A DNA stretch of 55,910 nt from a virus (lineage: Duplodnaviria; Caudoviricetes). Shown here one piece after another: positions 17,334 through 54,860 of this stretch; positions within the stretch are counted from its first letter, which is position 1; each line of letters starts with the position of its first letter. The position numbers were made by a program, and so were the translations under genes. The notes below the pieces were generated by a model. It was not told where the DNA came from, made no database searches, and saw only the letters and a program-made list of their open reading frames with translations. The stretch spans positions 1 through 55,910 of IMG/VR virus record IMGVR_UViG_3300008267_009201. One strand, given 5' to 3'.

Positions 17334-17337
17334 AGTA

Positions 17338-20140: not shown

Positions 20141-20146
20141 TTTGTG

Positions 20147-21468: not shown

Positions 21469-21469
21469 T

Positions 21470-21874: not shown

Positions 21875-21875
21875 A

Positions 21876-24126: not shown

Positions 24127-24127
24127 A

Positions 24128-25117
24128 TTATAAATTTTCTAAAATTTTAATTATTTTTTGAGTTGATTTACCATCGCCATAAGGACACTCATTTAAAATG
24201 ATATAATCATTTTTTATTTTGTAAAATAGTTCTTTTAAATCTGATGGTTTTTCACAAATAAATGAATGGGTACCTATTGATTCAGTTCTTTCTGTTACTT
24301 TACGACAAACGATAACTTTTTTATTTAAAAATGAACCCTCCTCTTGTAATCCCCCACTATCTGTAATACATAATTTACATTTACTTAAATAATCTATTAA
24401 TTCATCGTGAGGTAACGGGTCAACAACTTTAACGTTTTTTAGTAACAATGAATATTTTTTAACATTTGGATTTGGATGAATTGGAAGTAAAAACTCAAGG
24501 TCAGTATTTTCATTGGCTAATTCATCAATTAACTGAAACCACTCTTTAATCATTTCGTGATTTTCTCTTCTATGTAAAGTAACTAATACTTTGTTTTCGT
24601 AAGATGTTGAAATACCATTTAAGTTATCTAAAACTGTATTACCTACCACAAATTTTTTACCTTCAATTTTTTCAGATAATAGATTATTTAAATTATTATT
24701 AGTTGGACATAAGTGAATGTCGGCAATTTTAGAGATTATTTGACGATAGATTTCTTCAGGATATGGATTATCTTTATCGTAAGTTCTAAGACCCGATTCT
24801 AAATGAATTATTTTTATTTTTCTATGATAACAAGATAATGCGATTGATACCGCAGTTGCGGTGTCCCCTTGAACTAATACGTAGTCAAACCCATTATCTA
24901 AAACATTTGAAATTTGATTTGACATTACTGAAGAAAATATAGAATCAAGTCTATTAGATTGTTCAAAAATTTCTAAAGAATAATTGTAATTACCCAATAC
25001 TAAATTTTGATGTTGTTTAACAAATAGGAATTCAAAATTAACGTTACCTGAATAATTGAAAAAATTTTTAATTTTAATATACTCCGGTCTTGTACCATAA
25101 CAAATTAGTATTTTCAT
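24128..25117 (-). CDS. wecB: UDP-N-acetylglucosamine 2-epimerase
   Basis: GTRPEYIK, QGDT, HLESGLR, PEE, TLHRREN, HPNP, TDSGGLQEE, PYGDG. Confidence 0.95.
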   Translation of the reverse strand: MKILICYGTRPEYIKIKNFFNYSGNVNFEFLFVKQHQNLVLGNYNYSLEIFEQSNRLDSIFSSVMSNQISNVLDNGFDYVLVQGDTATAVSIALSCYHRKIKIIHLESGLRTYDKDNPYPEEIYRQIISKIADIHLCPTNNNLNNLLSEKIEGKKFVVGNTVLDNLNGISTSYENKVLVTLHRRENHEMIKEWFQLIDELANENTDLEFLLPIHPNPNVKKYSLLLKNVKVVDPLPHDELIDYLSKCKLCITDSGGLQEEGSFLNKKVIVCRKVTERTESIGTHSFICEKPSDLKELFYKIKNDYIILNECPYGDGKSTQKIIKILENL

Positions 25118-26754
25118 ATTTTATTGATTGCGTTCATATAAATTTCTTTTATTTTGTTAACAACATTGATTGAGCCAAACTTATCAGTATCTGAAGGAAC
25201 TTCATTTAGTTTTTTATCTTTAATATTTCCATCACCATCAATGTTATATATCCAACCTGGCTTACCACATAACCAACCTTCAATTGTTGTACGACCAAGT
25301 AATATTCCAGCAGTTTCAGAACACCCCTTTACAAATTTTTCAACATTTTTAGTACTTGGGAAATATTTTACATTTCCATAATATTTGAATTGAGATGCAT
25401 AGTTTGATTTATCTTGCCCAACAATCCATAAATCTTTTCCAATATCGTTAGAGTAGTCAATTAAATCAAAAATTGTATTTTTTCTTAATTCATCAATAGT
25501 ACCAACAAAAAGAATATAGTTATCATCTTTAGTGTTATTAGTATTAAAACGTTCAGTGTCAATTGGATTATAAATCACCTCAATTAAGTCAGAATTGATA
25601 TTGAAATTATTGATTAAATGGTCTTTAATCTCAGGTCTGATTGCAATGTATTTTTCAACCATATCATTCACTACCGGATTTTCCAAATTAATAACTTCAG
25701 AATGGATTGTATATATTTTAGGGACATTTGGATATAAATTATTTAAGATATTAACAACAGGTTGATGTTGGTAATGAATTACATCAAAATTTTCTTCTCC
25801 GACTTTATAAAATTTGTTTTTTTCAGATAATATAGACCCATTTGGTGTATTTAATCTCCATACTCCATCACCTAATTTAAACCCTGGAGAATTAATAATA
25901 TTAAAAACTTTAATTCCTTCAGTTTTTGCAATATTTGCAAGGGGCCCCTCGGTTTCATATGCCACAATACTTACATCAGCATTTTGTTTAACTAAATTTT
26001 TGGCTAATTCATAAACATACATTTCTGAACCTGTAAATTCTCTGAAAAATAAACAACCAATTAAAACTTTAATTTTGTCATTATTAGTTATTTTAATTTT
26101 TGATGGCAAAAAATCTGAATATTTTTCAGAAAAAATTACTCTATTTTTCTCCCATTTTTCATTTGTCATTCCTATTGATTTATGGGTTAATCTAATATTA
26201 GTTATAACCCCAATTTTACACGATTCGATATAATTTTGAAAACAAAAATTAACATCGTAAAAATGAAAACCACTAACTGACTCATCGAAATTCTTTTTAA
26301 TTTTTGTTTTATCTAAACAAATGAAAAGACCATCAACTATTACTACCTCTTTAACATTATTTTGTTGGGAATCCGAATATTTAGATTCCCATTTTTTACC
26401 TTCGTGTTCATGATTGACTATTCCAATCATTTTAGACCTATCTTCCCACCACATACCACTTTTTGGTAAGTATGTTGAACCAGCAACTCCAATAATTGAA
26501 TATTCGGGATTCCTCTCAAATACCTTTTTTAATTTTTCACCCCAATTTTTAGTATCAAAATATATATCATCGTGACACAATACAACAATATCGTTTAATG
26601 ATTCTGAAAGTATCTCATTATAAACCTGAGACAAACTTTTTTCACCATTATTTACCTTTTCAATGACCTGAATTTTAGGATTACCACAAGATTTTTTAAG
26701 GTATTCTATAAAATCAGGATTACTATTTCTTGTACTATATCCAATCGTTATCAT
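25114..26754 (-). CDS. Two-domain glycosyltransferase (GT-A Glyco_tranf_2_5-like plus GT4)
   Basis: LCHDDI, VDGLF and FHFYD in the N-domain; GSEMYVYELA, IYNPID and GRTTIEGWLCG in the C-domain. Confidence 0.85.
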   Translation of the reverse strand: MITIGYSTRNSNPDFIEYLKKSCGNPKIQVIEKVNNGEKSLSQVYNEILSESLNDIVVLCHDDIYFDTKNWGEKLKKVFERNPEYSIIGVAGSTYLPKSGMWWEDRSKMIGIVNHEHEGKKWESKYSDSQQNNVKEVVIVDGLFICLDKTKIKKNFDESVSGFHFYDVNFCFQNYIESCKIGVITNIRLTHKSIGMTNEKWEKNRVIFSEKYSDFLPSKIKITNNDKIKVLIGCLFFREFTGSEMYVYELAKNLVKQNADVSIVAYETEGPLANIAKTEGIKVFNIINSPGFKLGDGVWRLNTPNGSILSEKNKFYKVGEENFDVIHYQHQPVVNILNNLYPNVPKIYTIHSEVINLENPVVNDMVEKYIAIRPEIKDHLINNFNINSDLIEVIYNPIDTERFNTNNTKDDNYILFVGTIDELRKNTIFDLIDYSNDIGKDLWIVGQDKSNYASQFKYYGNVKYFPSTKNVEKFVKGCSETAGILLGRTTIEGWLCGKPGWIYNIDGDGNIKDKKLNEVPSDTDKFGSINVVNKIKEIYMNAINKI

Positions 26755-27353
26755 ATTCCAGTACTCCCAAACCCGTTTTCTCCACGGTCTTTACTTTCTA
26801 CTTTATTGACTTTAACTAAATTAACATTTCTACCTGGATAACATTTTGATAAAACCGCTTGAGCGATTTTCATTCCTTTATTTATCTTGAATTGTTCTTT
26901 ATTTGTATTAAAAATTATGACTTGAACTTCACCTGTATAACCTTCGTCAACAGTTCCAGGACTATTAAGTACCATTAAACCTTGTTTAAGTGCTAAACCA
27001 CTTTTAGACCTTACTTGAATTTCAAATCCTTCAGGTATTTCAAATCGAATACCTGTTGGTACCAAAGCTCTGCCAAACCCATCAATTAAAATATCTTGGG
27101 TTGAGTATAAGTCAAATCCACTATCTGAAACATAATTATAATTTAAATTTAAATCGTCCTCAGATGAATACGGTAAATCTACTTTACTCATTGATTCCGC
27201 CATCTGAGACTCAAAGTCTTTTAAATCAATACCAAATTCATCGGAAATTTGTTTATACAAATCTAAATCAGATTCTTTTTCAATTGAGGACTGCATTTTT
27301 TTTATTTCCTCGTACAGGTCAAAATCTTCATCATTAATATTATCTAAACTCAT
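26751..27353 (-). CDS. dut: dUTPase (trimeric) with acidic N-terminal extension
   Basis: SGFDL, RSKSGLA, PGTVDEGYTGE, IAQ, RGENGFGSTG. Confidence 0.95.
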   Translation of the reverse strand: MSLDNINDEDFDLYEEIKKMQSSIEKESDLDLYKQISDEFGIDLKDFESQMAESMSKVDLPYSSEDDLNLNYNYVSDSGFDLYSTQDILIDGFGRALVPTGIRFEIPEGFEIQVRSKSGLALKQGLMVLNSPGTVDEGYTGEVQVIIFNTNKEQFKINKGMKIAQAVLSKCYPGRNVNLVKVNKVESKDRGENGFGSTGI

Positions 27354-28051
27354 TTTAAATTTTTAATTTTTTTAACAACATTTATTAATACTTCAACATC
27401 TTTTTCACAATAATCCTGTATTTCTTGATATTTGTTTTCATTCCAAAAGTAATAATGTACTTTGTTACCCGTGACTTCCATATTTTTAGAAGATTCAACA
27501 CCTAATGAAATACACATTAACTCTAAAGAACTAATCGCTCCAAACTGGCCAAATTGCCAAATATCTTTAGTGTCAACTGCTTTAACTTCCCAAGGTTTAG
27601 TATCTGGCGTTGGTAATATTGATGACGGTAATATACCATTTATTAACATTCGTTTACCTAAAACAGGAATATCAAAATTCTTAATATTATGTCCACAAAG
27701 TACAAAACCTAATTTATCGACACGATTTAGTAATGTGTTTACATCTTTTAGTAGTTGAGTTTCATCTGAATTAAAAAATGTTTGTTTTTTAATTGTGTCA
27801 TCAGGACCAATAAACCCTACCGATACACATATAATTTTTGAAAATTCAGGTACTAAAGCTGCACGGTTTACAAATATCTCTTCTTTTGGTTTATCTAAAT
27901 CCTCAGGAAACCTTTTTTGAAACCAATCTAAGTAATTTTCAAATTGATAACAAAGAGACGGATAATCCCGTTTGAACGATTCGTAATTACTTGAAACTCC
28001 AACAGTTTCAATATCTATAAATAATAATTTGTTTAATGGGTATTGTATCAT
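27350..28051 (-). CDS. Stand-alone PolB-type 3'-5' exonuclease (DEDDy)
   Basis: FIDIET, GHNIKNFD, YCEKDV. Confidence 0.88.
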   Translation of the reverse strand: MIQYPLNKLLFIDIETVGVSSNYESFKRDYPSLCYQFENYLDWFQKRFPEDLDKPKEEIFVNRAALVPEFSKIICVSVGFIGPDDTIKKQTFFNSDETQLLKDVNTLLNRVDKLGFVLCGHNIKNFDIPVLGKRMLINGILPSSILPTPDTKPWEVKAVDTKDIWQFGQFGAISSLELMCISLGVESSKNMEVTGNKVHYYFWNENKYQEIQDYCEKDVEVLINVVKKIKNLK

Positions 28052-28054
28052 AAA

Positions 28055-29173
28055 TTATTTTAATAAACTGAAATAAAGTTCTTTTCTATCTTTTTTTGAC
28101 CAATCAGAATGGTTACGAGTCTCCTCAACCAATAAAGCGTTACCATCAACAAATTCACCATTTTTAAGAGCGTGTTTTAAGTCAATCGTGTAAGGTCCAA
28201 CATTAGACGCAATTAATGCTTTTTTATAGAATCCTGCCTCAATGACCTTCAACTGTGACTTAACTCGATTAAAAATATGATTTTTAATTGGGGCTAAAGA
28301 TATATCAAATTTAGAATAATTTTTGGCATAAGATGTTGTAGGTAACGTCCAAACTCTTCGATATCCCTCATTTAATTCGTTATAGTAGGACTCGTCTTTA
28401 AATTTCATAAGATGTGTCTTATACTCTTCGTCAACAATTTTATAATTGTTTGTGAAAATTTCTTCATACTTTACCCAAACTGTTTCGTCAGGTCTAATAG
28501 GTCTTACTTTTTTTTCACCTGTATCTTTATTATATTCGGTCATACTACCACGTGTGTCAAATCCACATACAACATATTGAATTTTATCATTTAAAGTACC
28601 CAATTTACTTACCATTCCGTCTAAAAGATATAAATCATGTAAGTGAGATGAACCTCCAAGCCACCCAACTCTGATTCTGTCCGACTCTAAAGTTTTTTCT
28701 TTAAATTGAGGTTCATTAGGGTCAATAGCATTTGGTAATACGGAAACGTTTTTATTAATTTTGAAAACTTCAGATGCGAATACAGACGTAGTTGTTGTTA
28801 CGTGTTTAGCGGCTTTAATCTGAGCAATAATTTTCTCATTTATTTTTTCTTGAACAATGATTGCATGTAATGGGTGTTCCTTAGTAGGTAACCAATAATC
28901 GTCAATATCACAGATTGTGACAACTCCTTGATTGTTTAGTTTATTAATTAACTCTACTGATTTGTCATAATTTTGTCCAATTAATCTATGAAAATGAACA
29001 ATGTCATATTTTTGCCAAAATTTATCATCTTCATAATCGACATCAAATTCAATATCAACATGAACCTCATTAGGATATAACTTTTGTAAACAAACGTGTG
29101 GGTCTATTGACCTAAATTTACCCACCCCACTTCTATCTGAAGGTAGAACTAAAATATTTATCTTTTTACTCAT
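28055..29173 (-). CDS. GT4-like glycosyltransferase (possible C-terminal internal deletion)
   Basis: DIDDYW, PNAID, GWLGGSSH..D, DISLAP..FN.VKS.LK.IEAG; the likely start is MSKKIN at 29173. Confidence 0.85.
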   Translation of the reverse strand: MSKKINILVLPSDRSGVGKFRSIDPHVCLQKLYPNEVHVDIEFDVDYEDDKFWQKYDIVHFHRLIGQNYDKSVELINKLNNQGVVTICDIDDYWLPTKEHPLHAIIVQEKINEKIIAQIKAAKHVTTTTSVFASEVFKINKNVSVLPNAIDPNEPQFKEKTLESDRIRVGWLGGSSHLHDLYLLDGMVSKLGTLNDKIQYVVCGFDTRGSMTEYNKDTGEKKVRPIRPDETVWVKYEEIFTNNYKIVDEEYKTHLMKFKDESYYNELNEGYRRVWTLPTTSYAKNYSKFDISLAPIKNHIFNRVKSQLKVIEAGFYKKALIASNVGPYTIDLKHALKNGEFVDGNALLVEETRNHSDWSKKDRKELYFSLLK

Positions 29174-29180
29174 AGAAACA

Positions 29181-29209
29181 ATTATAGTTATTAAACTATA
29201 ATATTTCAA
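29181..29209 (-). promoter_or_regulatory. Promoter for the glycan operon with an overlapping 9-bp inverted repeat
   Basis: - strand TTGAAA-17 nt-TATAAT; inverted repeat attatagtt-atta-aactataat at 29181-29202. Confidence 0.6.
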
Positions 29210-29839: not shown

Positions 29840-30223
29840 TTAAGTAAAATTCGCTAAAATGTCAATTGATACCATTCTTTTATCTCCATTTGGATTAAAT
29901 CCTGGTCTGACCTCTGAAAACATGTCATCTGTTATACTTACACTTAGAATGTCTTTAACTTTAAAATACCTCCAACCTGGCATAGGTCTTGTCCTTAAAA
30001 ATCCTCTATGTGATGCACCCTCCCTTTCCCAAGCACATAGTACCTGATTACCTTTTTTGTTTACACCTAAACAAACAGGTTCAATTACTCTAATTCCTTT
30101 ACCTCCGGGTTCATCACCATTGTATGTTATATACAATACTTTACGTTGGGATATTGCATCCCTTATATCACGCAAAGTGACAGTTTCCAACAATAGTGAT
30201 TTAAATGACTCTAATAATTTCAT
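29840..30223 (-). CDS. Stand-alone WYL-domain protein
   Basis: I.Y....R.IEP..LG....L.AW....WR.FK...I WYL pattern; leader MKLLESFKSLLLE. Confidence 0.8.
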   Translation of the reverse strand: MKLLESFKSLLLETVTLRDIRDAISQRKVLYITYNGDEPGGKGIRVIEPVCLGVNKKGNQVLCAWEREGASHRGFLRTRPMPGWRYFKVKDILSVSITDDMFSEVRPGFNPNGDKRMVSIDILANFT

Positions 30224-31874: not shown

Positions 31875-33995
31875 ATGAGTCAACAGAATATTAATCAATA
31901 TGTGTCTAACAACTGGAAATTGAGTCCAAGTTGGAATAATATAGACATGTCTTTATCTTCAGATGAAATAGATTTCAATGAGGAGGTTGTTTTTTCAACA
32001 GAATTAATAGGAATTAATAATGGTAACAGATTACCTATACATTTTGATTTAAATAATCTTAACTCATCACAACAACCAACTTTAAATTATGGTGATTTTT
32101 TGTCAGGGAATACTTTAGTCTCATTAAATTATTATAATCCTAATAATGAAGATTTATCTTGTTTTACTGGTGATAGTTTGTGTGATATTGGTTTAGTTGG
32201 TACTGATAATGGTTTAGTCCCTGAAATGTCAGGTGAAACAATACACTTTAGTATGGGATTGTATACAGGGTCAACTAAATGGGATAGATACCATTTTGAT
32301 AGACGTACAAAATTAATTCAAATAACGGGATATACTAACAATGTTGATAGATTTTCAGGTAATACGAAAGAAACTGTATATAATATTGTTGACAAAGAAT
32401 TATCAAGTTTTGGTTATTATAATCAATTATACGGAGGTTTCTACCAAGGATTTTTTAAATTATTTGGGTATGATTACGAGACATTTCCAAATAGATGTAA
32501 TAAGGGATGGTCTGTTGAAATGTTACTAAGAGCTAGACAAGAAGACCAATTTTCTCCAACATCGGCAGAAACAACATTAAATGAGGTATACCCAAGTAAT
32601 GATAATACTTTTTTTTATTTTGGTACAAGAGCTGAAAACAAATATTACCATCACGCATCAGGTTCCCCATCATCTGATTCAGGATATACTAGAGTTACTG
32701 AAATTTTAAGTGGATGTTTACATACATGTGCATGTTCGGATACTGGAGTAACTATTTCACGTTGTTTAGATGATATATATGAACCTTTAATTTACACCAA
32801 TCAACACAATGTTAATTGTAACTGTGGATGTTCAGAAAATGTTGTTCCTAATGATGATAAAAACCCTCTGCTTGACTCAATGTCAAATACTTTTTCACTT
32901 AGACTTTCAGGAGACCCAAAAAATCCAAAAGTATGTGTTAGAGTTCTTAAATTTACCGGAGGATGTGAAACAACGGGTAGTTGTGAAAATACAGGAATTA
33001 CATATACTACAGGATATACAATAACTAATTATTGTTCAAGTAAAAATATTTTTGATTACTGTTCGTCAACTCAAACTTATTTAGATAAAGAACATTGGTT
33101 TTTAATTGATTGTGTTTGGGAACGTAATTCATATTATGATAACTGTGATTTATTATATCGAGGAGGGTTGGATTCAATAACGACATTTTATTATGTAAAT
33201 TCATTGGCGGGAAATGCGGTTAGTTTAATTACAGTACCCTATACACAATCAGGTGCAACTCCCGCCGAACAAATCGAAGTTGTTAATTTAAATGAAGAAT
33301 GGTTAATTGAAAAAGACCAAAGATTAGGTTCTTTAAAAATATACATTAATGGTAGATTATTTTACGTTATTAATGGGTTTGAAGAGGTAATACCTAGAGG
33401 TTTAAATACCGAGAAAGAAAAACAAATAGGTGTACCATTTAATATTGGTTGGGGTGGAGGTACACAAGGTTTGAGAGAAAGTTTAACTTTTTCCGCATGT
33501 CCCGAATCACTATCAGGTTTAACCTACCAACAAGACCCGGAATGTATGCCAAATGAAACATTATCGGGTACATCTTTATCTTCTTTAACTACAAATATTT
33601 TAATTGAACCAAATTTTGCGGGTTCTTTTGACGGAGCAATATCTCAATTTAGAATGTATACCGAACCTTTAACGTATCCTGAAGTTGTTCATAATTTTGA
33701 CATATTAAAAGGTAATTTTGGATTATTTGATTATAAATGTCCAAGTTGTTCTGATGTTGTTGTTAATGATATTATTGGTGTTACTGTCGGTTCGGATATA
33801 ATATTTTCATCCAATGAATTTTCAGGAATGACATTTAACCTTTATTACTATAAAGATTCTGGGGAACCAAGGTATGTCGTTGTTGAAAATGAAACTTTCC
33901 CATATACTATGGATACTCTTTCTGTACCAAATTGTTGTAGTAATAATTTTTATTTTTATATTATTGAATTAGACCAAACATTCCTTTACACCTAA
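31875..33995 (+). CDS. Putative virion structural protein, concanavalin/LamG-like, Cys-rich
   Basis: LKIYINGRL, IGWGGG and FDGAISQFRMY..PL...EV..NF are LamG-like features; many [ST]GxT motifs. Confidence 0.65.
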   Translation: MSQQNINQYVSNNWKLSPSWNNIDMSLSSDEIDFNEEVVFSTELIGINNGNRLPIHFDLNNLNSSQQPTLNYGDFLSGNTLVSLNYYNPNNEDLSCFTGDSLCDIGLVGTDNGLVPEMSGETIHFSMGLYTGSTKWDRYHFDRRTKLIQITGYTNNVDRFSGNTKETVYNIVDKELSSFGYYNQLYGGFYQGFFKLFGYDYETFPNRCNKGWSVEMLLRARQEDQFSPTSAETTLNEVYPSNDNTFFYFGTRAENKYYHHASGSPSSDSGYTRVTEILSGCLHTCACSDTGVTISRCLDDIYEPLIYTNQHNVNCNCGCSENVVPNDDKNPLLDSMSNTFSLRLSGDPKNPKVCVRVLKFTGGCETTGSCENTGITYTTGYTITNYCSSKNIFDYCSSTQTYLDKEHWFLIDCVWERNSYYDNCDLLYRGGLDSITTFYYVNSLAGNAVSLITVPYTQSGATPAEQIEVVNLNEEWLIEKDQRLGSLKIYINGRLFYVINGFEEVIPRGLNTEKEKQIGVPFNIGWGGGTQGLRESLTFSACPESLSGLTYQQDPECMPNETLSGTSLSSLTTNILIEPNFAGSFDGAISQFRMYTEPLTYPEVVHNFDILKGNFGLFDYKCPSCSDVVVNDIIGVTVGSDIIFSSNEFSGMTFNLYYYKDSGEPRYVVVENETFPYTMDTLSVPNCCSNNFYFYIIELDQTFLYT

Positions 33996-34031: not shown

Positions 34032-35276
34032 ATGAAAATTTTTATCCAAATTGCGTCTTATCGAGACCCACAATTAATCCCAACAATTAAATCCGCAATA
34101 GATAACGCCAAACACCCTGAAAATTTAGTTTTCGCAATTGCAAGACAATTTAATGAGAGTGACGGATTTGATAATTTAGATGAATATCGAAATGATGAAA
34201 GGTTTAGAATTTTAGATATCCCATATCAAGAGTCTAAAGGAGCTTGTTGGGCTAGAAATCAAATACAACAACTTTATCAAAAAGAAGAGTACACACTTCA
34301 AATAGATTCACATATGAGATTTGCTAAAGATTGGGATGTTGAAATGATTGGGATGATTAAACAACTACAAAAGAAAGGGTATAAAAAACCTTTATTAACA
34401 GGATACGTACCATCTTTTGACCCTGATGATGACCCTAACTCAAGAGTAATGGAACCGTGGAGAATGGTTTTTGATAGATTCATACCTGAAGGTGCGGTAT
34501 TTTTCCTACCTGAAGTAATCCCCGGATGGCAAAACATGACGGAGCCAGTACCCGCAAGATTCTATTCCGCACATTATTGTTTCACATTAGGTAAATTTTC
34601 AAAAGAAGTCCAACATGACCCTGAATTTTATTTTCATGGGGAAGAAATATCTATAGCCGCAAGAGCTTATACTCATGGGTATGATTTATTCCATATCCAC
34701 AAAATTTTAATTTGGCATGAATATACCAGAAAAGGCAGAACTAAACAATGGGATGACGATAAAGATTGGGTAAATAAAAATGACTACTGTCATAAAAAGA
34801 ATAGAAGTTTATTTGGAATGGATGGTGAAGAACCAATGAGTCACGGTAAATATGGATTTGGTAAAAAGAGAACATTAAGAGATTATGAAAAATATTCGGG
34901 ATTACTTTTTTCTAAACGAGCCATCCAACAGTGGACAATTGACAAAAACTACCCACCAAATCCATATAACTTTAATACAGAAGAAGAATGGATGAACTCA
35001 TTTTCTTCAATATTTAAACACTGTATTGACATACAATACTCCCAAGTTCCTGAAAAAGATTATGATTTTTGGGTTGTGGCGTTCCATGATGAAAACGATG
35101 AGACACTTTTTAGGAAAGATGCCGACAAATCAGAGATTAGTCGTATGATGAATGACCCTGATGGATATGTTAAAATATGGAGAGAATTTAATATGGTTAG
35201 ACAACCAAAATATTGGGTAGTTTGGCCGCATTCAGAATCAAAAGATTGGTGCGAAAGAATCACAGGAAATTTATGA
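34032..35276 (+). CDS. GT60-like polypeptide/hydroxyproline N-acetylglucosaminyltransferase
   Basis: IFIQIASYRDPQL, G.CWAR, LQIDSHMRF..WD, DP..YFHGEEI...R.YT.GYD, H.Y.R. Confidence 0.85.
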   Translation: MKIFIQIASYRDPQLIPTIKSAIDNAKHPENLVFAIARQFNESDGFDNLDEYRNDERFRILDIPYQESKGACWARNQIQQLYQKEEYTLQIDSHMRFAKDWDVEMIGMIKQLQKKGYKKPLLTGYVPSFDPDDDPNSRVMEPWRMVFDRFIPEGAVFFLPEVIPGWQNMTEPVPARFYSAHYCFTLGKFSKEVQHDPEFYFHGEEISIAARAYTHGYDLFHIHKILIWHEYTRKGRTKQWDDDKDWVNKNDYCHKKNRSLFGMDGEEPMSHGKYGFGKKRTLRDYEKYSGLLFSKRAIQQWTIDKNYPPNPYNFNTEEEWMNSFSSIFKHCIDIQYSQVPEKDYDFWVVAFHDENDETLFRKDADKSEISRMMNDPDGYVKIWREFNMVRQPKYWVVWPHSESKDWCERITGNL

Positions 35277-36145
35277 TGGTGAATAATATATCTATTATAA
35301 TTTACACTAATGAAACATATTATGATTTGTTAGAGTTTACTTTACCTTTTTTAATTGAAAATTTTAAAAAAATTAATATTAAAAAATATGTCGTGTCAAA
35401 TAAAATTAAACAAAGTAGTCATTTTGAGGTGTCTGAGCAAATTGATTGTGGGGTTGAATTTTTAAGTAATGGAGGACATTTTGAACAAACAATTAGTTAC
35501 GCTTTAGAAAATATTAAAGAAGATTATATTTTATTTTTATGTGATGATTATTTGATAAAGTCTGAAGTTAAGTACGATATTTTAATGGGGGTTTTTAATT
35601 TTGTAATCGATAATGAAATTGACTATATGTCGTTAGGAACTCAAAAACATATGGAACCATTCATATTTGAGTGGGAAAATTTTAACATTGATTATAAAAA
35701 ATATGGTTTACCCGATAAATGTTTATTTAAAACCGATGTTAACTGCCGTCATTTGTACTCTGTTCAACCTTGTATATGGAAAAAAAAATCTTTGATTGAG
35801 ATTTTAAAAAATAATAAGAATATTACGTTACATGATTTGGATAATACAAACATAAAAGACCTTAATGGTAATTACCGAGAATTGGACGAAGAAAAGAATT
35901 TTATGTTTTATAAAAAAAATGAAAATTACAGAAATTATGATTTTAAAAATGTTTGTATACATTACCCTATAATCTCATACCATGTCGATGAAAAACCAAT
36001 AGACTCTGATTATTTTTTGTTGGACTATATTGAAATTGTACGTCATGGTAAATTTTTAGATGCGGAAGTTAACTCAAAATATATTTTAAATCAAAAATTA
36101 AACGAAAAATTAAATATTAAAAATAAACTTTTAAACTTTTTTTAA
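35273..36145 (+). CDS. Putative GT-A glycosyltransferase-like protein
   Basis: YILFLCDDYL and YSVQPCIWKK; likely start at 35273 through an ATGA overlap. Confidence 0.6.
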   Translation: MMVNNISIIIYTNETYYDLLEFTLPFLIENFKKINIKKYVVSNKIKQSSHFEVSEQIDCGVEFLSNGGHFEQTISYALENIKEDYILFLCDDYLIKSEVKYDILMGVFNFVIDNEIDYMSLGTQKHMEPFIFEWENFNIDYKKYGLPDKCLFKTDVNCRHLYSVQPCIWKKKSLIEILKNNKNITLHDLDNTNIKDLNGNYRELDEEKNFMFYKKNENYRNYDFKNVCIHYPIISYHVDEKPIDSDYFLLDYIEIVRHGKFLDAEVNSKYILNQKLNEKLNIKNKLLNFF

Positions 36146-36691
36146 ATGCCGGGAAATTGGGGTTATTTAGGTGAAGACACAAAGGAATATTTGTGTTCAA
36201 ATTACGACAAAGATTGTACAATTTTAGATGTTGGATGCGGACATGGATTCTATTACAAATTATTAAAAGAGCACTTCAATAAATTTGACGCTGTAGAGAT
36301 ATGGGAACCTTACATTGAAGAATATAAATTAAGAGAAATGTATGATAACGTATATAATGTTAATATCATGGATTTTGATTTTGAGTACTATGACATTATT
36401 ATTATGGGAGATGTTTTAGAACATTTGTCAAGAGAAGACGCCTCAAAATTATTGAATAAAATTAAAGATAAATGTAAAGAATTACTTGTTGTTGTACCGT
36501 ATTATTTACCACAAGATGAGGTTTTTGGTAATAAATATGAGATACATTTACAACCTGATTTAGATGATAAAATAATGTCTGAAAATTATCCGATGCTTGA
36601 ACTAATTAATTTCAATGGTAAAGATTTTAAAATCCCTATTGATATGGGTACCCATTACTATTACTACTGTGCATTCAAAAAGAAAATATGA
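36146..36691 (+). CDS. Class I SAM-dependent methyltransferase
   Basis: LDVGCGHG, YDIIIMGDVLEHL. Confidence 0.9.
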   Translation: MPGNWGYLGEDTKEYLCSNYDKDCTILDVGCGHGFYYKLLKEHFNKFDAVEIWEPYIEEYKLREMYDNVYNVNIMDFDFEYYDIIIMGDVLEHLSREDASKLLNKIKDKCKELLVVVPYYLPQDEVFGNKYEIHLQPDLDDKIMSENYPMLELINFNGKDFKIPIDMGTHYYYYCAFKKKI

Positions 36692-37569
36692 AATTACTTT
36701 TTAAATTTGATTTTGCAAATGGATGGGGAGATACTTTTTTAAGTCTATTTGATATTGTAAATTGTATAAATTATGTAAAAGAAAATTACCCAAATTTTTA
36801 TATAATATTTTTGATAAATGACAATAATTCTGTAGATACACTAAAGTTAGTTTTAGATTTTGAATTTTTCAATCAAATTTCTGACGAATTTAATGTTTTG
36901 TCTAAAGATAGTTTATTTAAAAATTTGAATGGTATTGGTTGGTATAAAAACGAAAAATTTAGTAGAATTTATTCAGGTAGAAATGAAGACACTAAAAATA
37001 ATATACCGGGTATATTTGATGTTTTTTGCTTAGAATCTAATTTGAATGAAATAATAAATTTAAATATCCCATTTTTAAACTTCACGTTTAACGATATTGA
37101 TGATAGAGTAGAATATTTCCCAATCTTTAACAAAAATTTAATTAATTTAGCTAATGATTTTATAAAAGATAATTTTAACAGTGGATTTGAATCTATATAT
37201 TTCAGAGCCTTAAATCCTTTAAATTATGAAAATATAGATTCATTTAAAAATAAATTATCTAAATTTGTATCTAAAGAAAAAAAATATTTTATGTGTTCGA
37301 ACTCTTCATTAGTAAAAAAAATAATATTAGATGAAGGGTATAATGTTATATTTTTTAGAAATTTTAAAGACCACAATTTAGACCACATTCCTAATGGATT
37401 TACTGTTTTTGGTCAGACTGTAGAAGATGCGATTTTTCCAGTTACTGAAATGATTATATTAGGAGAATCATCAAAAATAATATACTCTGGAGATATACAA
37501 AATGTAAGTTTATTTAATTGGTACGCAATAAACATAAAAAAAGTTAATTTAGAAAATATAATATTATGA
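36688..37569 (+). CDS. Putative fucosyltransferase-like (GT-B; NodZ/O-FucT-like) protein
   Basis: NGWGD near the N-terminus, SIYFR, CSNS, EMIIL..S, S.F. Confidence 0.5.
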   Translation: MKLLFKFDFANGWGDTFLSLFDIVNCINYVKENYPNFYIIFLINDNNSVDTLKLVLDFEFFNQISDEFNVLSKDSLFKNLNGIGWYKNEKFSRIYSGRNEDTKNNIPGIFDVFCLESNLNEIINLNIPFLNFTFNDIDDRVEYFPIFNKNLINLANDFIKDNFNSGFESIYFRALNPLNYENIDSFKNKLSKFVSKEKKYFMCSNSSLVKKIILDEGYNVIFFRNFKDHNLDHIPNGFTVFGQTVEDAIFPVTEMIILGESSKIIYSGDIQNVSLFNWYAINIKKVNLENIIL

Positions 37570-38426
37570 ATATTTTAATTACAACATTAAGTTTAGGTTA
37601 TAATTACACAAAAGATTATTGTCTACGAATGATTGAGGATGTCTTATCAATGACTGATATTGACATATATATAACTACTGATTTTTCAAATTTAATTTAT
37701 GATAAATTTGGGAAAAATGACAGGATTAAAATAAATGAAATTAATAGGGATGACTTAAAAATTAGAATCCCTATAGGTCCTAATAAAGGTGCGGATGATT
37801 TTAATTTTAATATGAGGTATCTTTGTTTAGAACATGTGTCAAATATTCAAGACTCAGTGGTAATTTTTACAGATTGTGATAATTCATTTGATTGGTGGGA
37901 TAAAGAAGAAGTCATTAAATTTATTGAATTAAATGAACAAAATGGATTTGATTTTTTTGGACCTAGAACTGACTATAAACTAATTGATGTGTTTAAAGTT
38001 TTTAATACGAATTGTGCAATGAATCCATTAATTCATAATTTAGATTATGATAAATGTACTATTATGTGGCACAAATTATTTAATTACGATTTAGTAGATA
38101 TGAATACTTACACTGTAATAGATTTTGAAAATCACATTTGGAAAGATTCTCCATTACCCGCGGAATATTTATTAATTTTTAACAACAAAAATAATAAGTT
38201 ATATAAAATGGTTGAAAAGTGGAAATGGTTTCATGACTATTTGGTTAATAAGGATTATTCATTTGGTACTTGGGCCGAAGGTTTTGAAATTGGAGTCTCA
38301 GCAAATTATGCCGGATTCAAACCAAAAGATATAACATTTACACATCCATTATGGAATAAAATTTTCACACCAAATGGTTATAAGACAGGACCTAGAGGAG
38401 GAGTGGTACATGGGACTGAAAAATAA
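37566..38426 (+). CDS. Putative GT-A glycosyltransferase
   Basis: YITTD, FNFNMR, IFTDCD (DxD), W.EG.EIG. Confidence 0.55.
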   Translation: MNILITTLSLGYNYTKDYCLRMIEDVLSMTDIDIYITTDFSNLIYDKFGKNDRIKINEINRDDLKIRIPIGPNKGADDFNFNMRYLCLEHVSNIQDSVVIFTDCDNSFDWWDKEEVIKFIELNEQNGFDFFGPRTDYKLIDVFKVFNTNCAMNPLIHNLDYDKCTIMWHKLFNYDLVDMNTYTVIDFENHIWKDSPLPAEYLLIFNNKNNKLYKMVEKWKWFHDYLVNKDYSFGTWAEGFEIGVSANYAGFKPKDITFTHPLWNKIFTPNGYKTGPRGGVVHGTEK

Positions 38427-39363
38427 AATTGAAGAGATAATTATTTCGTATGACTACGGTTATAATGATTGGTATGTAACTGAATTTTATAAATTTTTTC
38501 ACAAAAAATTAAATGAAATTTTAAATGTTAATATCAAATTTGTCCCATTAAAAGATTTAGCGAAAAATATGGGTAAAGAATTTAATGACCATAGTGATAG
38601 TCTTTTTACTTGGTTTAATTTAATAATTATGAACACTAAAACAGGTAAAATGTTTGTTCATTCATGGTATGATTACGCCTTTACCACCTACTTGTATTGT
38701 GAAAAAAATAATTACAATGTTGTTAAATTTTCGGCATGTTCTAGTATAACTAATGAGTTTATAGAAAATCATAAAAATGTACAACCTTCAATATACTATT
38801 TAGAAAATTGGAGTGACCAAAATTTAATTAATTTTAACCCAAGTGGCTCTAAAAAAAATAATTGTTATTTTGCGGGATGGTCTCATGGAAATCGAGAAAA
38901 TATTTTAAATGAATTTAAAAAATATGATTTTTTTGACATTTTTTTAAAAGGTGGGGACAAACCAAATAAGACTAAAAAAGTTTATTATGACGACTTATCA
39001 AATTATAAATTTGGTCTCAGTTTAGACGGAGCTGCGGGGATATGTTATAGGGACATAGAGTTATTTGCGAGTGGGTCGTTAAATCTTAGACAACCAATTA
39101 AAATTAATACATACTCCCCAATTATTGAAGGAGTTCATTATGTGAATTTTGTAAATGAAGATTTAATATCTTCAATTATAAAAGGGTATAACGTTGAGTC
39201 TGAAATTAAAGAAAATATCGAGAAAATTATAGACTTTTCAAGTACAAGTGAATACAATTTAATTATTGATAACGCTAGAGAATGGTTTGAAAAAAATTGT
39301 TTACCTGATAATCAATTTAAAATTTTGTATTCCTTTTTAGATGAACTTGAAATATTATTTTAA
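38410..39363 (+). CDS. Putative GT-B glycosyltransferase (exostosin-like C-domain)
   Basis: YFAG...R, Y..DL..YKFGLSLDG....CYRDIE..A.G, GVHYV; likely start at 38410. Confidence 0.55.
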   Translation: MGLKNKIEEIIISYDYGYNDWYVTEFYKFFHKKLNEILNVNIKFVPLKDLAKNMGKEFNDHSDSLFTWFNLIIMNTKTGKMFVHSWYDYAFTTYLYCEKNNYNVVKFSACSSITNEFIENHKNVQPSIYYLENWSDQNLINFNPSGSKKNNCYFAGWSHGNRENILNEFKKYDFFDIFLKGGDKPNKTKKVYYDDLSNYKFGLSLDGAAGICYRDIELFASGSLNLRQPIKINTYSPIIEGVHYVNFVNEDLISSIIKGYNVESEIKENIEKIIDFSSTSEYNLIIDNAREWFEKNCLPDNQFKILYSFLDELEILF

Positions 39364-39365
39364 AT

Positions 39366-48037: not shown

Positions 48038-48050
48038 CAATAATAAATAC

Positions 48051-51683: not shown

Positions 51684-54600
51684 ATGGCTAAATCAAACAC
51701 AGTTTTCGTTTCTCCAGGTGTATACACATCTGAAAGAGATTTGAGTTTTGTGTCTCAAAACGTCGGTGTAACTACTTTAGGTATTGTTGGGGAAACGGTA
51801 AAAGGTCCGGCCTTTGAACCGATTTTCATCACAAACTATGATGAATTCCAACTTTACTTTGGTGGGACAACACCTGAAAAATTTGTGAACACACAAATAC
51901 CTAAGTATGAAGCTGCGTATATCGCAAAATCTTACTTACAACAATCTAATCAACTTTTTGTAACTCGTGTATTAGGGTTATCAGGTTACGATGCGGGACC
52001 TTCATGGTCAATTAGCACAGTAGCTAATGTTGATTGTAGTACTGTTGGATTCAACGGCTCACCAACAACATATACTGTTAATTTCACAGGTACTACTGCG
52101 TCAACAAACACGATTAGTTTTACAACAAGTTTCCCGTCAGTTATAAACGCGAACCTTACTGAAAATTATACAACTTTTAATGGTGGAACATCAACAATTT
52201 CAGATGATGTTAAAGCATTGTTATTAGGTATTATGAGAACCCCAGCGTCTTCGGCTTATACTGCAAGTATGTGGGGAACTAATTTAGGTTCTAGTTACAC
52301 TTCATTTGCTAATACATATTCAGCGATAACTAATGAATTTGGCGTTACTAGTTTATCGGCAATTACATGTAATGCAAATAATGACCCATGGTTTTATTCA
52401 AATTTTGATTTAACTACAGGAAATACTTACACAGGTTATTCATTTAATGCTGCAGTAACTACAATGACGGGTACAGCAGGTTCATTCTCAGGGATTATGT
52501 CAGGTACTTACTTTACTCTTACAGGTACTGCATTTTCAAATTACAATAATATTGTTGTAACAACTCTTCGTTCAAGAGGATTGGCAGATTATGCAAATGA
52601 TGCGGGTCCAGTATACCAAGTATCTGCAACAACAGGATTAAGTATGGTTTGTTCAGGAGCTTATTCAGGAGTAACTAAAAATCCGTTCACAACTTTCTTG
52701 TTAACTGGAGTTACAATAGAAAATACTAATTTCACTTATGAAGTTAATCTTTTAGAGACAAGTCCAAATTATATTTCAAAAGTGCTTGGGGTATCAAACT
52801 TTGGTAAACCTAGAACAACTTTCCCATTATTTGTGGAGGAGACTTACTCTACTTTATTAAATTATGCATATAACAAAGGGTATATTCGAGGATTAAATTG
52901 TACATTAGATACAACATCTAAAGCAAGAGATTTAACCGCAGATTCATTAGGTTGGTATTTAGAACAGTACCAAAGTGCTGAGTCTCCTTGGGTTGTTTCT
53001 GAATTACGTGGTAATAAAGTATACGAATTGTTTAAATTCTTCACAATTGCCGATGGTAATAATTCAAATACTCAAGTTAAAGTAACAATTGCAAACATTT
53101 CATTTACTAATGGTACTTTTGATGTGATTGTTAGAGATTTCTACGACACTGACAGTAATCCTGTAGTTGTTGAGAAATTCTCAAATTGTAGTATGGACCC
53201 AGGATTAAACAACTATATCGCTAAAAAAATCGGTACATCTGATGGGGAGTTCCAATTGAATTCTAAATATGTAATGTTAGAAGTTAATGTTGACGCACCG
53301 ATAGATGCATTACCATGTGGTTTTGAAGGTTATATTAATAGAGAGTACCCTTCAGCTACACCGGCATATCCAGTTTATAAGACTAAATATTACATTCCTG
53401 GTGAGACTATTTATGACCCTCCTTTTGGAAACTCTGCAGGTACAAACAATGATACTCAAAGTTCAGGTGACAATGTAAGAAGAAGTTACTTAGGGTTCTC
53501 AAGTCAATTTGGAGTTGACGAATCATTATTAATCTATAAGGGAAAACAAAATCCTGTTAGTGATTTCTGTGATGCGACAACAGGTTCAGATTGGGCTTAT
53601 CTTTCTAAAGGTTTCCATATGGACAGTGGAGCAACTGCTATTACAATATCACAGTTAAATCCTAATTATGGTGGTTTAGTTACTTCAGGAAATCAGGCGT
53701 TTGATTGTGGTGTTGCATCATTTAATAGTGAACCTACATCAGAAACTAACCCTTACTACAGATTATTTTCACGTAAATTCACTATGGTATTACAAGGTGG
53801 ATTTGATGGATGGGATATCTATACTGAAAGAAGAACTAATTCTGACAGATTTGTATTAGGTAGAAGTGGTTATTTGGCAGGAGCGTGTGTTTCTACAACA
53901 TATCCTTTAGCAACTGGAACAGGAATGTTTAAACAAATTACTGTAGGTGAAAATAGTGTCGATTGGGCAAATACCGATTACTACGCATATTTGTTAGGAC
54001 AACAAACTTTCTCAAATCCTGAGGCGGTTAATATAAATGTGTTTGTGACACCTGGTATTGACATTGATAACAACAGTAATCTTGTAGAATCAGCAATTGA
54101 TATGATTGAAAACGATAGAGCGGATTCAATTTATATCACAACCATTCCTGACTTCAATTTGTTACAACCATCAACATCTATGGATAATTTATATTACCCA
54201 CAAGAGGTTGTTGACATTTTAGAAACTTCAGGTATCGATTCAAATTATACGGCAACTTACTATCCTTGGGTGTTGACTCGTGATACAGTTAATAACACAC
54301 AAATTTATCTTCCAGCAACTGCCGAGGTAACAAGAAACTTAGCTTTAACTGATAACATTGCGTTCCCATGGTTCGCAGCCGCGGGTTACACAAGAGGTTT
54401 GGTAAATGCAATTAAAGCACGTAAAAAGTTAACTCAAGAAGATAGAGACACTCTTTACAAGGGAAGAATTAACCCAATTGCAACTTTCAACGATGTTGGA
54501 ACAGTGATTTGGGGTAATAAGACTCTTCAAATTAGAGAATCTGCTTTAGATAGAATTAATGTAAGAAGATTGTTATTACAAGCTCGTAAGTTGATTTCAG

Positions 54601-54860
54601 CAGTGGCTGTAAGGTTATTGTTTGAACAAAACGATGCGGTGGTTAGACAACAATTCTTAGATGCGGTTAACCCTATCTTAGATTCAATTAGAAGAGACAG
54701 AGGTCTATACGATTTCAGAGTGACAGTTCAAAACACACCTGAAGATTTAGATAGAAATCAAATGATTGGTAAAATCTATATTAAACCTACTAAGGCGTTA
54801 GAATTTATCGACATTGAGTTCTTAATCACACCGACAGGTGCGTCTTTTGAGAACATCTAA
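51684..54860 (+). CDS. Tail sheath protein (gp18-like) with large insertions
   Basis: SPGVYTSERDLS, G.T.KGPAF.P, PWFA.AG..RG, INPI..F, WGNKTL, RINVRRLL, FEQND, P.KALEFI. Confidence 0.95.
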   Translation: MAKSNTVFVSPGVYTSERDLSFVSQNVGVTTLGIVGETVKGPAFEPIFITNYDEFQLYFGGTTPEKFVNTQIPKYEAAYIAKSYLQQSNQLFVTRVLGLSGYDAGPSWSISTVANVDCSTVGFNGSPTTYTVNFTGTTASTNTISFTTSFPSVINANLTENYTTFNGGTSTISDDVKALLLGIMRTPASSAYTASMWGTNLGSSYTSFANTYSAITNEFGVTSLSAITCNANNDPWFYSNFDLTTGNTYTGYSFNAAVTTMTGTAGSFSGIMSGTYFTLTGTAFSNYNNIVVTTLRSRGLADYANDAGPVYQVSATTGLSMVCSGAYSGVTKNPFTTFLLTGVTIENTNFTYEVNLLETSPNYISKVLGVSNFGKPRTTFPLFVEETYSTLLNYAYNKGYIRGLNCTLDTTSKARDLTADSLGWYLEQYQSAESPWVVSELRGNKVYELFKFFTIADGNNSNTQVKVTIANISFTNGTFDVIVRDFYDTDSNPVVVEKFSNCSMDPGLNNYIAKKIGTSDGEFQLNSKYVMLEVNVDAPIDALPCGFEGYINREYPSATPAYPVYKTKYYIPGETIYDPPFGNSAGTNNDTQSSGDNVRRSYLGFSSQFGVDESLLIYKGKQNPVSDFCDATTGSDWAYLSKGFHMDSGATAITISQLNPNYGGLVTSGNQAFDCGVASFNSEPTSETNPYYRLFSRKFTMVLQGGFDGWDIYTERRTNSDRFVLGRSGYLAGACVSTTYPLATGTGMFKQITVGENSVDWANTDYYAYLLGQQTFSNPEAVNINVFVTPGIDIDNNSNLVESAIDMIENDRADSIYITTIPDFNLLQPSTSMDNLYYPQEVVDILETSGIDSNYTATYYPWVLTRDTVNNTQIYLPATAEVTRNLALTDNIAFPWFAAAGYTRGLVNAIKARKKLTQEDRDTLYKGRINPIATFNDVGTVIWGNKTLQIRESALDRINVRRLLLQARKLISAVAVRLLFEQNDAVVRQQFLDAVNPILDSIRRDRGLYDFRVTVQNTPEDLDRNQMIGKIYIKPTKALEFIDIEFLITPTGASFENI

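What the first reader, a model, noticed from the sequence alone, without database searches (positions are those of the whole stretch)
31875..33995. Recurrent [ST]-[GA]-x-[ST] motif in structural proteins: a candidate glycosylation sequon
Seen: the 706-aa protein contains SGNT (twice), TGDS, SGET, TGST, TGYT (twice), TGVT, TGIT, SGYT, SGAT, SGLT, SGTS and SGMT. The motif recurs in the sheath and in 6315-7808 (SAIT, TGLT), 41438 (SGVS, TGYS), 7833 (SATT) and 9576 (SGTT). It looks scarce in polB, the helicase and the GTs. These are not DNA-level repeats, which points to selection on a peptide signal. Inference: an acceptor sequon for the phage GTs, distinct from the Bacteroidota D-[ST]-[AILVMT] sequon.
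Basis: partly seen in the sequence, partly recalled or inferred. Interest (0 to 1): 0.85.

Follow-up and report, generated by a model that had tools for sequence, protein, structure and literature searches.

The report
Ser/Thr-Gly-x-Thr tag on jumbo-phage proteins
A lectin-like protein and the outer part of the tail sheath of this uncultured jumbo phage carry the four-residue pattern Ser/Thr-Gly-x-Thr far more often than chance, which may mark sugar-attachment sites, though no sugar has been shown and a purely structural reason is nearly as likely.

Summary
In the 706-aa protein, [ST][GA]x[ST] occurs 15 times against 2.1-3.0 expected. It is the most over-represented of 98,304 comparable patterns. 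In the sheath it occurs 19 times against 5.8-7.4 expected. ORFs 6315, 7833, 9576 and 41438 sit at chance, and so do the enzymes, which are not depleted.

The protein models as a ConA/LamG-like jelly roll. It belongs to a large family of uncultured jumbo-phage proteins. Of 91 homologues, 80 are enriched, and the sites turn over across 248 alignment columns. Three or more lineages lost the motif and replaced it with charged residues. T4 and S-PM2 controls, including S-PM2's LamG proteins, show no enrichment. In a 272-kb relative, 15 fibre-like ORFs are enriched, while 24 enzymes and the inner virion parts are not.

So a lineage-specific peptide signal is real. Whether it is a glycosylation site is untested. 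The adjacent GT60-like transferase is not its required reader.

My odds are 0.4 for an enzyme-read surface tag, most likely for sugar attachment, and 0.35 for a structural loop-to-strand idiom.

This scan has noted the same motif before on related phage DNA.

The parts
31875..33995 (+). Gene of the 706-aa ConA/LamG-like jelly-roll protein (P0001) with 15 [ST][GA]x[ST] sites and 23 Cys
   Evidence: ORF. The N-terminus is conserved in homologues (A1 consensus). AlphaFold2 gives pLDDT 88.6 and pTM 0.88. No Pfam, PHROG or NCBIfam hit.
32103..32366 (+). N-terminal group of six sites at residues 77, 98, 119, 131, 151 and 161. The first three are spaced 21 residues apart.
   Evidence: Retention in 121 close homologues: residue 119 in 87/87, 151 in 86/88, 161 in 113/120, 98 in 71/85, 77 in 69/83, 131 in 53/88.
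32562..32753 (+). Sites at residues 230 (SAET), 269 (SGYT) and 290 (TGVT)
   Evidence: Residues 269 and 290 are kept in 121/121 and residue 230 in 76/121.
32991..33020 (+). Two sites at residues 373 and 379 in a Thr-rich beta-hairpin of the Cys-rich insertion
   Evidence: Kept in 120/121 and 121/121 homologues.
33249..33833 (+). Four C-terminal sites at residues 459, 547, 564 and 650, which are less conserved
   Evidence: Kept in 38/120, 70/97, 109/121 and 27/91 homologues.
51684..54860 (+). Tail sheath gene (1058 aa) with 19 sites
   Evidence: PF04984 and PF17482, phrog_23. 19 against 5.8-7.4 expected.
52041..52733 (+). Fast-evolving sheath insertion (about residues 120-350) that holds 13 of the 19 sites
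   Evidence: Site list. Identity to three relatives is 36-45% here, against 80-89% at the two ends. Sites are only partly kept.
34032..35276 (+). GT60-like glycosyltransferase (PF11397) that starts 37 bases after the 706-aa gene on the same strand
   Evidence: PF11397 scores 221.8 bits against a cut-off of 21. phrog_24687 at E 4.5e-172. Downstream and co-oriented in 20 of 20 loci that hold it, but held in only 20 of 80 loci. Not found in G004 and G005.
28055..29209 (-). Conserved upstream glycosyltransferase (phrog_7162), a candidate reader that was not tested
   Evidence: Found in the flank of 69 of 80 close loci and 57 of 80 distant loci.
25114..26754 (-). Conserved upstream two-domain glycosyltransferase (Glyco_tranf_2_5 plus Glyco_transf_4)
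   Evidence: Found in the flank of 62 of 80 close loci and 35 of 80 distant loci.

Best explanation
Hydrophobic-[ST]-G-x-T is a short linear tag on exposed loop-to-strand junctions of the outward-facing, fibre-like proteins of this jumbo-phage lineage. Selection keeps its density rather than each individual site. The most plausible reader is a soluble phage enzyme that modifies the Ser/Thr hydroxyl in the host cytoplasm. O-glycosylation by one of the lineage's own glycosyltransferases is the leading candidate.

Shown here: the enrichment, its conservation and turnover, its restriction to this lineage, and the class of proteins that carry it.

Inferred: that the sites are exposed, that an enzyme reads them, and that the modification is a sugar.
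For: 1. The motif is real and ordered.

2. It is not generic. None of 35 T4 proteins shows a comparable excess (sheath 3 against 2.9, gp34 3 against 6.9, gp37 11 against 6.7). S-PM2 has 212 against 194 over 145 ORFs, no ORF with z >= 3 and n >= 5, and its three LamG ORFs are at chance.

3. Density is kept while sites turn over.
- 80 of 91 homologues have z > 3 (median 8), down to 27-34% identity.
- There are 248 distinct site columns in 92 sequences.
- Motif S/T are kept as S/T in 68-70% of cells, against 45-47% for other S/T.

4. The fold does not need the motif. Motif-poor members arise at least three times in the tree. Their sites become D/E/N/K-rich tetrads, and the Gly is lost too.

5. 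In the 272-kb relative G003:
- 15 ORFs have z >= 3 and n >= 5. BLAST links only 7 of them, in two groups.
- They lie beside baseplate and fibre genes.
- 24 enzymes have 9 against 11.8. Six inner virion parts have 3 against about 5.2.

6. The window holds 6 glycosyltransferase genes above family cut-offs, 2 weak ones, and nucleotide-sugar genes. Two GTs stay syntenic with the family across 160 loci.

7. Positions 1 and 2 are in coil in 14 and 12 of 15 sites. Basic residues are depleted from -4 to +6, and Pro is never at position 3.
Against: - No chemistry exists. Nothing computed shows an attached sugar.
- No reader is identified. The adjacent GT60-like gene was not found in G004 and G005, although their homologues are motif-rich.
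- The conserved GTs sit in a replication module (exonuclease, dUTPase, polB) and could act on DNA or host glycans instead.
- Ser at position 1 in coil and Thr at position 4 in strand match ordinary residue propensities. A strand starts at +1 to +5 in 9 of 15 sites, against 28% for any position but 39% for other Gly.
- In some relatives the motif is part of structural repeats: a 36-residue fibre repeat, and DUF285 repeats with S-G-V-T.
- Some S/T-rich neighbours avoid the motif (0 against 6.2 and 1 against 6.2-6.5 in L021, L022 and L024; window 41438 has 2 against 3.25).
- The decisive co-variation test with GT content could not be run.
Confidence: 0.4

Rival explanations
1. A purely structural idiom with no modification. 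A Ser/Thr cap plus Gly makes the kink at the end of a loop, and a beta-branched Thr starts the next strand. The lineage's beta-rich fibre modules reuse this solution, partly through repeats and module exchange.
For: - The site is mostly coil at positions 1-2, with strand at position 4 in 7 of 15 sites and a strand start at +1 to +5 in 9 of 15.
- Hydrophobic residues are favoured at -1 (44%) and +4 (42%) against 34% background. Thr is at position 4 in 205 of 248 columns and Ser at position 1 in 153 of 248.
- The motif sits inside repeat units of a fibre protein and of DUF285 proteins in G003.
- T4 gp37 shows a mild excess of [ST]GxT (6 against 2.1).
- The four best-kept sites are invariant or nearly so (120-121 of 121).
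Against: - LamG and fibre proteins of S-PM2 and T4 lack the enrichment.
- At least three lineages of the same fold dropped the motif, Gly included.
- Sites turn over while density stays.
- Motif Gly/Ala are no better conserved than other Gly/Ala (67% against 67-68%).
- The association with strand starts is not clearly above that of other Gly (9/15 against 16/41).
Confidence: 0.35
2. A recognition tag of another kind. It could be a different modification such as phosphorylation or acylation, or a docking motif for an assembly factor or for host-surface binding.
For: The same evidence for a selected, exposed, lineage-specific linear motif applies. Nothing computed here singles out a sugar.
Against: Pfam scans of 58 window ORFs found no kinase or acyltransferase aimed at proteins. 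GTs and sugar-nucleotide genes are the dominant accessory content. A binding motif would not be expected at 15-24 copies per protein.
Confidence: 0.12
3. Chance or a by-product of composition: S/T- and G-rich segments, or post-hoc choice of the pattern.
For: The sheath sites lie in an S/T-rich, fast-evolving insertion, and there the Gly form is only marginal.
Against: Local shuffles in 20-residue blocks still give 3.0 against 15. The pattern ranks first of 98,304. The three positions are coupled. Hundreds of homologues are enriched.
Confidence: 0.03

Closest known systems
Virion O-glycosylation of mycobacteriophages by phage-encoded glycosyltransferases (Freeman et al. 2023). I know it only through its citation and one summarising passage in PMC12619734. 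The paper itself is not held.
   Same: A phage carries its own soluble glycosyltransferases, and its particle proteins are the proposed acceptors.
   Different: According to that passage, the glycans there sit at the C-termini of capsid and tail-tube subunits. Here the candidate sites are dispersed through a lectin-like protein, the sheath insertion and fibre-like proteins. The tube of the relative G003 has 0 sites. Nothing is shown chemically here.
SgtA/BclA3 of Clostridioides difficile: beta-O-GlcNAc on Thr of Gly-Pro-Thr collagen-like repeats (PMC7157674, passages read).
   Same: A soluble transferase encoded next to its substrate gene modifies Thr two residues after Gly. In a run of GPT triplets, the tetrad T-G-P-T fits [ST]-G-x-[ST].
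   Different: There are no collagen-like tandem triplets here. Pro is never at position 3 in 248 site columns. The sites are dispersed in a jelly roll. The neighbouring enzyme is GT60-like, not a GT-A plus TPR protein.
CAZy GT60 / Pfam PF11397 polypeptide GlcNAc-transferases of protists. Their function is recalled from memory and was not checked in a paper here.
   Same: The gene 34032-35276 matches PF11397 far above cut-off. It is always downstream of and co-oriented with the 706-aa gene where present (20 of 20 loci).
   Different: It is present near the family gene in only 20 of 80 loci, and it was not found in two long motif-rich relatives. It therefore cannot be the general reader of the motif.
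ConA-like/LamG jelly-roll carbohydrate-binding modules and phage tailspike lectin domains
   Same: VIA-align matches:
- Cyanopodophage Pan3 tailspike 9vyh_q: Z 14.8, rmsd 8.2, 241 residues aligned.
- Arabinanase domain 4, 5hon_B: Z 14.1, rmsd 3.1, 197 aligned.
- CBM40 domains: Z 11.5-12.
BFVD neighbours are named LamG-like jellyroll or virion structural proteins.
   Different: - The protein has no Pfam hit.
- The jelly roll is split by large insertions, including a Cys-rich one.
- The motif enrichment is not a property of the fold, because S-PM2 LamG ORFs are at chance.

Membership tests
ConA-like / LamG jelly-roll fold (706-aa protein) | Structural match of a jelly-roll core to solved members | tested here: met
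   Z of 13-15 over 197-241 aligned residues to several lectin-like domains. BFVD neighbours are LamG-like. The model has pLDDT 88.6.
ConA-like / LamG jelly-roll fold (706-aa protein) | Sequence-profile match to Pfam Laminin_G_3 (PF13385) | tested here: not met
   0 Pfam families at E <= 0.01. Of 28 distant homologues, one (P0208) has a sub-threshold match in the homologous part (22.4 bits against a cut-off of 27.6). One other (P0147) has a match in a C-terminal extension.
Protein O-glycosylation sequon (generic) | Over-representation of the pattern in candidate acceptor proteins and not in cytoplasmic enzymes | tested here: met
   for the window. G003: 15 enriched fibre-like ORFs, with 24 enzymes at 9 against 11.8.
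Protein O-glycosylation sequon (generic) | Acceptor residues solvent-exposed | tested here: inconclusive
   Coil state at positions 1-2 and charged replacements in motif-poor homologues suggest exposure.
Protein O-glycosylation sequon (generic) | A cognate transferase that co-occurs with the motif | tested here: inconclusive
   The GT60-like neighbour fails: it was not found in G004 and G005, whose homologues are motif-rich. Two other GTs are syntenic in most loci, but no motif-poor genome could be fetched for a contrast.
Protein O-glycosylation sequon (generic) | Glycan shown on the residue | not testable with these tools
   This needs mass spectrometry or a structure.
Bacteroidota general O-glycosylation sequon D-[ST]-[AILVMT] | Enrichment of that sequon | tested here: not met
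   4 against 2.30 (p 0.20) in the 706-aa protein. 6 against 4.52 (p 0.30) in the sheath.
N-x-[ST] N-glycosylation sequon | Enrichment of that sequon | tested here: not met
   3 against 11.1 in the 706-aa protein, which is a depletion. 15 against 15.9 in the sheath.
Collagen-like GXT glycoproteins (BclA type) | Tandem Gly-X-Thr triplets | tested here: not met
   No internal repeat. Pro is never at position 3.
GT60 / PF11397 (gene 34032-35276) | Profile match above the curated cut-off over most of the domain | tested here: met
   221.8 bits against 21, covering profile positions 92-349 of 352. The acceptor is not tested.
Contractile tail sheath (gene 51684-54860) | Phage_sheath_1 and Phage_sheath_1C domains | tested here: met
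   PF04984 at 33.2 bits and PF17482 at 34.1 bits, both above cut-off. phrog_23 at E 5.4e-56.

The most novel reading that the evidence does not exclude
Hydrophobic-[ST]-G-x-T is the acceptor sequon of a cytoplasmic, phage-encoded O-glycosylation system. This system would sugar-coat the exposed loops of fibres, a lectin-like protein and the sheath surface across a very large clade of uncultured aquatic jumbo phages. Lineages that lost the system would have replaced the sites with charged residues.
Probability: 0.3. Interest if true: 0.85.

Novelty: new variant of a known kind. Interest (0 to 1): 0.5.

Why it matters
If the tag is read by a phage sugar-transferase, it would be the first defined sequon for virion glycosylation in environmental phages. 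It would also allow glycan-coated surfaces to be predicted from sequence in a large family of uncultured jumbo phages. A glycan coat would bear on host recognition, on particle stability in water and on escape from host surface defences.

If the motif is only structural, it is still a useful marker of this lineage's outward-facing proteins.

In either case the claim can be tested at the bench without culturing the phage, by co-expression and mass spectrometry.

Tried and rejected
- The first AlphaFold2 run, with 65 close homologues, gave a poor model (pLDDT 46.3). A more diverse alignment fixed this.
- Foldseek against the PDB gave only weak whole-chain matches (TM 0.15-0.28).
- Profile and sequence searches of the PDB found nothing for the family or for the G003 fibre protein.
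- tblastn of the 706-aa protein and of the fibre repeat against 50,697 phage records found nothing.
- NCBIfam named none of the candidate structural proteins.
- Co-variation of motif loss with GT loss could not be tested.
  - P0154 and P0248 have no close relative in viral contigs.
  - A profile of the motif-poor clade found only motif-rich relatives plus one poor locus, L120 (1 against 1.0), whose upstream flank is cut by the contig end.
  - The single metagenome scan found nothing above 40% identity.
- The replacement spectrum at motif S/T (N and D first) is like that of other S/T. It does not separate turn-capping from acceptor roles.
- A DNA-level cause is rejected.
- My recollection that an L-S-G-G-T type word is a known tail-fibre repeat found no support. 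Pfam gave no hit, and the paper search for it with 'tail fiber' returned 0.
- Paper searches for a phage sequon of this form (listings read, passages read) turned up none. Supplements are closed and were not seen.
- Whether this phage belongs to the 'moraphages' of PMC12619734 was not tested.
Full report
**What the window is.** The 55.9-kb window is a whole virus record with GC 29.7%. It encodes:
- a tail sheath, polB, an SNF2-type helicase, PhoH and dUTPase;
- six glycosyltransferase genes above family cut-offs and two weak ones;
- nucleotide-sugar genes: UDP-GlcNAc 2-epimerase, a DegT-type aminotransferase piece, GNAT, FkbM and other methyltransferases, and a HAD-nucleotidyltransferase fusion.

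Its sheath and GT60-like gene have only distant relatives among cultured phages. Relatives sit on contigs of up to about 300 kb. It is therefore an uncultured jumbo myophage.

**The observation.**
- [ST][GA]x[ST] occurs 15 times against 2.10 expected from whole-protein shuffles.
- Shuffles confined to blocks of 100 down to 20 residues give 2.2-3.0. None of 3000 shuffles reached 15.
[ST][GA]xT and [ST]GxT rank first, with Poisson p of 6e-11 and 9e-11.
- The three positions are coupled. 14 of 20 Gly that follow S/T have S/T at +2, against 4 of 35 other Gly (p 1.5e-5).
- There is no internal protein repeat and no DNA repeat of note. Codons at the sites vary, and the other five frames hold no site.

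The sheath has 19 sites against 5.8-7.4 expected. The excess is mostly the Ala form, and 13 of the 19 sites lie in an insertion (about residues 120-350). That insertion is only 36-45% identical to three relatives, against 80-89% at the two ends.

The 23 Pfam-annotated enzyme ORFs are at expectation, not depleted (9 against about 8.6).

**What the protein is.** It matches no Pfam, PHROG or NCBIfam family. With a diverse alignment, AlphaFold2 gives a confident model with pLDDT 88.6 and pTM 0.88.

The core is one ConA/LamG-like jelly roll spanning about residues 40-616, with large insertions.
- VIA-align gives Z 14.8 to a cyanopodophage tailspike, Z 14.1 to an arabinanase lectin-like domain, and Z 11.5-12 to CBM40 modules.
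- BFVD neighbours are LamG-like jelly-roll and virion structural proteins.
- Clostridial neurotoxin binding domains also appear in the lists, but only as members of the same lectin fold.

The family is very large. Homologues share the first 550-630 residues and differ in their C-terminal extensions, which include DUF285, LRR and LamG modules.

This pattern fits a particle-anchored, carbohydrate-binding fibre or baseplate protein. That it is in the virion is inferred from fold and architecture and is not shown.

**Evolution of the motif.** In 121 close homologues most sites are kept. Residues 269, 290, 373 and 379 are kept in 120-121 of 121.

In a 92-sequence alignment reaching 27% identity:
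- 80 of 91 homologues are enriched, with median z of 8;
- per-site retention in the distant ones is only partial;
- there are 248 distinct site columns, so sites are gained and lost while density stays;
- motif S/T are kept as S/T in 68-70% of cells against 45-47% for other S/T, whereas motif Gly/Ala are conserved no better than other Gly/Ala.

Taking one instance per column, the wider consensus is as follows:
- hydrophobic or Thr at -1;
- Ser more often than Thr at position 1;
- Gly (73%) or Ala at position 2;
- never Pro at position 3;
- Thr (83%) at position 4;
- hydrophobic at +4;
- few basic residues nearby.

Motif-poor members arise at least three times in the family tree. Their sites become tetrads rich in D, E, N and K, and the Gly is often lost too. 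The fold therefore does not need the motif, and the positions tolerate charge.

**Structure context.** In the model, position 1 is in coil in 14 of 15 sites and position 2 in 12 of 15. Position 4 is in a strand in 7 of 15. A strand starts at +1 to +5 in 9 of 15 sites, against 28% for any position (p about 0.01) but 39% for other Gly.

The motif therefore sits at loop-to-strand junctions. Hydrophobic residues at both -1 and +4 imply a kink between them. By inference, this leaves both hydroxyls on the outside. I could not compute accessibility.

**Is it generic?** No.
- In T4, none of 35 proteins tested shows a comparable excess. The sheath, fibres, baseplate and Hoc are at chance, with gp37 mildly up at 11 against 6.7.
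- In cyanophage S-PM2, 145 ORFs have 212 sites against 194 expected. No ORF reaches z 3 with 5 or more sites. Its three LamG ORFs are at chance.

**Which proteins carry it in a fuller genome.** G003 is a 272-kb relative, 91% complete by CheckV. Over 296 ORFs it has 379 sites against 204 expected.
- Fifteen ORFs have z >= 3 and at least 5 sites.
- BLAST links only seven of them, in two groups.
- They lie beside baseplate-wedge genes or next to the family gene.
- 24 enzymes have 9 against 11.8.
- Portal, protease, adaptor, tube, hub and two wedges together have 3 against about 5.2.
- The major capsid protein has 7 against 2.8, and the sheath 11 against 5.8.

In two kinds of these proteins the motif is part of a structural repeat. 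One is a 36-residue fibre repeat with four sites per unit. The other is DUF285 repeats with S-G-V-T. In others it is dispersed, as in the 706-aa protein.

Some S/T-rich neighbours avoid it: 0 against 6.2, and 1 against 6.2-6.5.

**The transferases.** The GT60-like gene starts 37 bases after the 706-aa gene. It is downstream and co-oriented in all 20 loci that hold it. But only 20 of 80 close loci and 0 of 80 distant loci hold it within 10 kb.

It was not found in G004 (88% complete) or G005 (100% complete), whose homologues are motif-rich. In G001 and G002 it lies tens of kilobases away. It is therefore not the required reader.

Two other GTs, at 28055-29209 and 25114-26754, stay upstream of the family gene in 69 and 62 of 80 close loci and in 57 and 35 of 80 distant loci. 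They are interleaved with an exonuclease and a dUTPase, so a role on DNA is not excluded.

**Weighing.** A lineage-specific, ordered, exposed-looking motif is kept in density through turnover. It is carried by many fibre-like proteins not linked by BLAST, and it is dispensable for the fold. This is how sites read by an enzyme behave, and the accessory genes of these phages are dominated by soluble sugar enzymes.

Against this reading:
- the residue preferences are those expected of a loop-to-strand junction;
- part of the signal elsewhere comes from structural repeats;
- no reader is identified;
- no chemistry exists.

I put the enzyme-read tag, most likely a sugar acceptor, at 0.4. A purely structural idiom gets 0.35, another kind of tag 0.12, and chance 0.03.

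**Known systems.** The nearest precedents are:
- mycobacteriophage virion glycosylation, known to me only from a citing passage;
- SgtA/BclA3, where Thr of Gly-Pro-Thr repeats receives GlcNAc from a transferase encoded next door.

Neither fits in detail (see the membership table). The Bacteroidota sequon and N-x-S/T are not enriched. Four paper searches found no phage sequon of this form.

Earlier notes of this scan report the same motif on related phage DNA, with the same open question. They are not independent evidence.

Noticed in passing
window 31875-33995: N-x-[ST] is depleted in the 706-aa protein (3 against 11.1, z -2.7). This is not family-wide: the median z is -0.41, and 5 of 92 sequences are below -2.
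   Followed up: partly
window 31875-33995: All 9 Ser at motif position 1 use TCA or TCG, whereas 25 of 56 other Ser do. The codon before GGN ends in A in 10 of 15 sites. This may be a codon-pair effect.
   Followed up: no
window 32727-33065 (about residues 285-396): The insertion is Cys-rich. C285, C287, C297, C315, C317, C319, C364 and C396 are invariant in 65 homologues. This suggests a metal site or a disulphide knot.
   Followed up: no
window 11928-29209 (-) and 34032-41042 (+): Two blocks of sugar genes flank the 706-aa gene: GT2/GT4-type transferases, UDP-GlcNAc 2-epimerase, a DegT piece, GNAT, FkbM and other methyltransferases, a HAD-nucleotidyltransferase fusion and an HtrL/YibB-like protein. 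The downstream block is a variable island; most of its genes are found in 0-2 of 80 related loci, 13 at most apart from the GT60-like gene.
   Followed up: partly
window 41438-42961: A 507-aa protein with 29% Ser+Thr (phrog_15511) has the motif at or below chance (2 against 3.25). Homologues lie beside the family gene in 28 of 80 and 50 of 80 loci.
   Followed up: partly
L021 11904-14180, L022 11904-14528, L024 11904-14195: Large S/T- and G-rich ORFs directly after the family gene almost lack the motif (0 against 6.2, 1 against 6.2, 1 against 6.5). This is the opposite of their neighbours.
   Followed up: no
G003 68218-72240 (L088 4218-8240): A 1340-aa fibre-like protein has tandem 36-residue repeats that each carry four motif sites (53 against 13.4). 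It has no Pfam, PDB or phage-database match.
   Followed up: partly
window 47327-48112: Phage-encoded Fe/Mn superoxide dismutase (PF02777, PF00081).
   Followed up: no
window 1205-2569: A VanY-type D-Ala-D-Ala carboxypeptidase fused to a peptidoglycan-binding domain. It is probably the endolysin, and it has 3 motif sites against 1.16 expected.
   Followed up: no
window 29840-30223: A small WYL-domain protein lies in the conserved block between the family gene and the upstream GT. It is found in 72 of 80 close loci.
   Followed up: no
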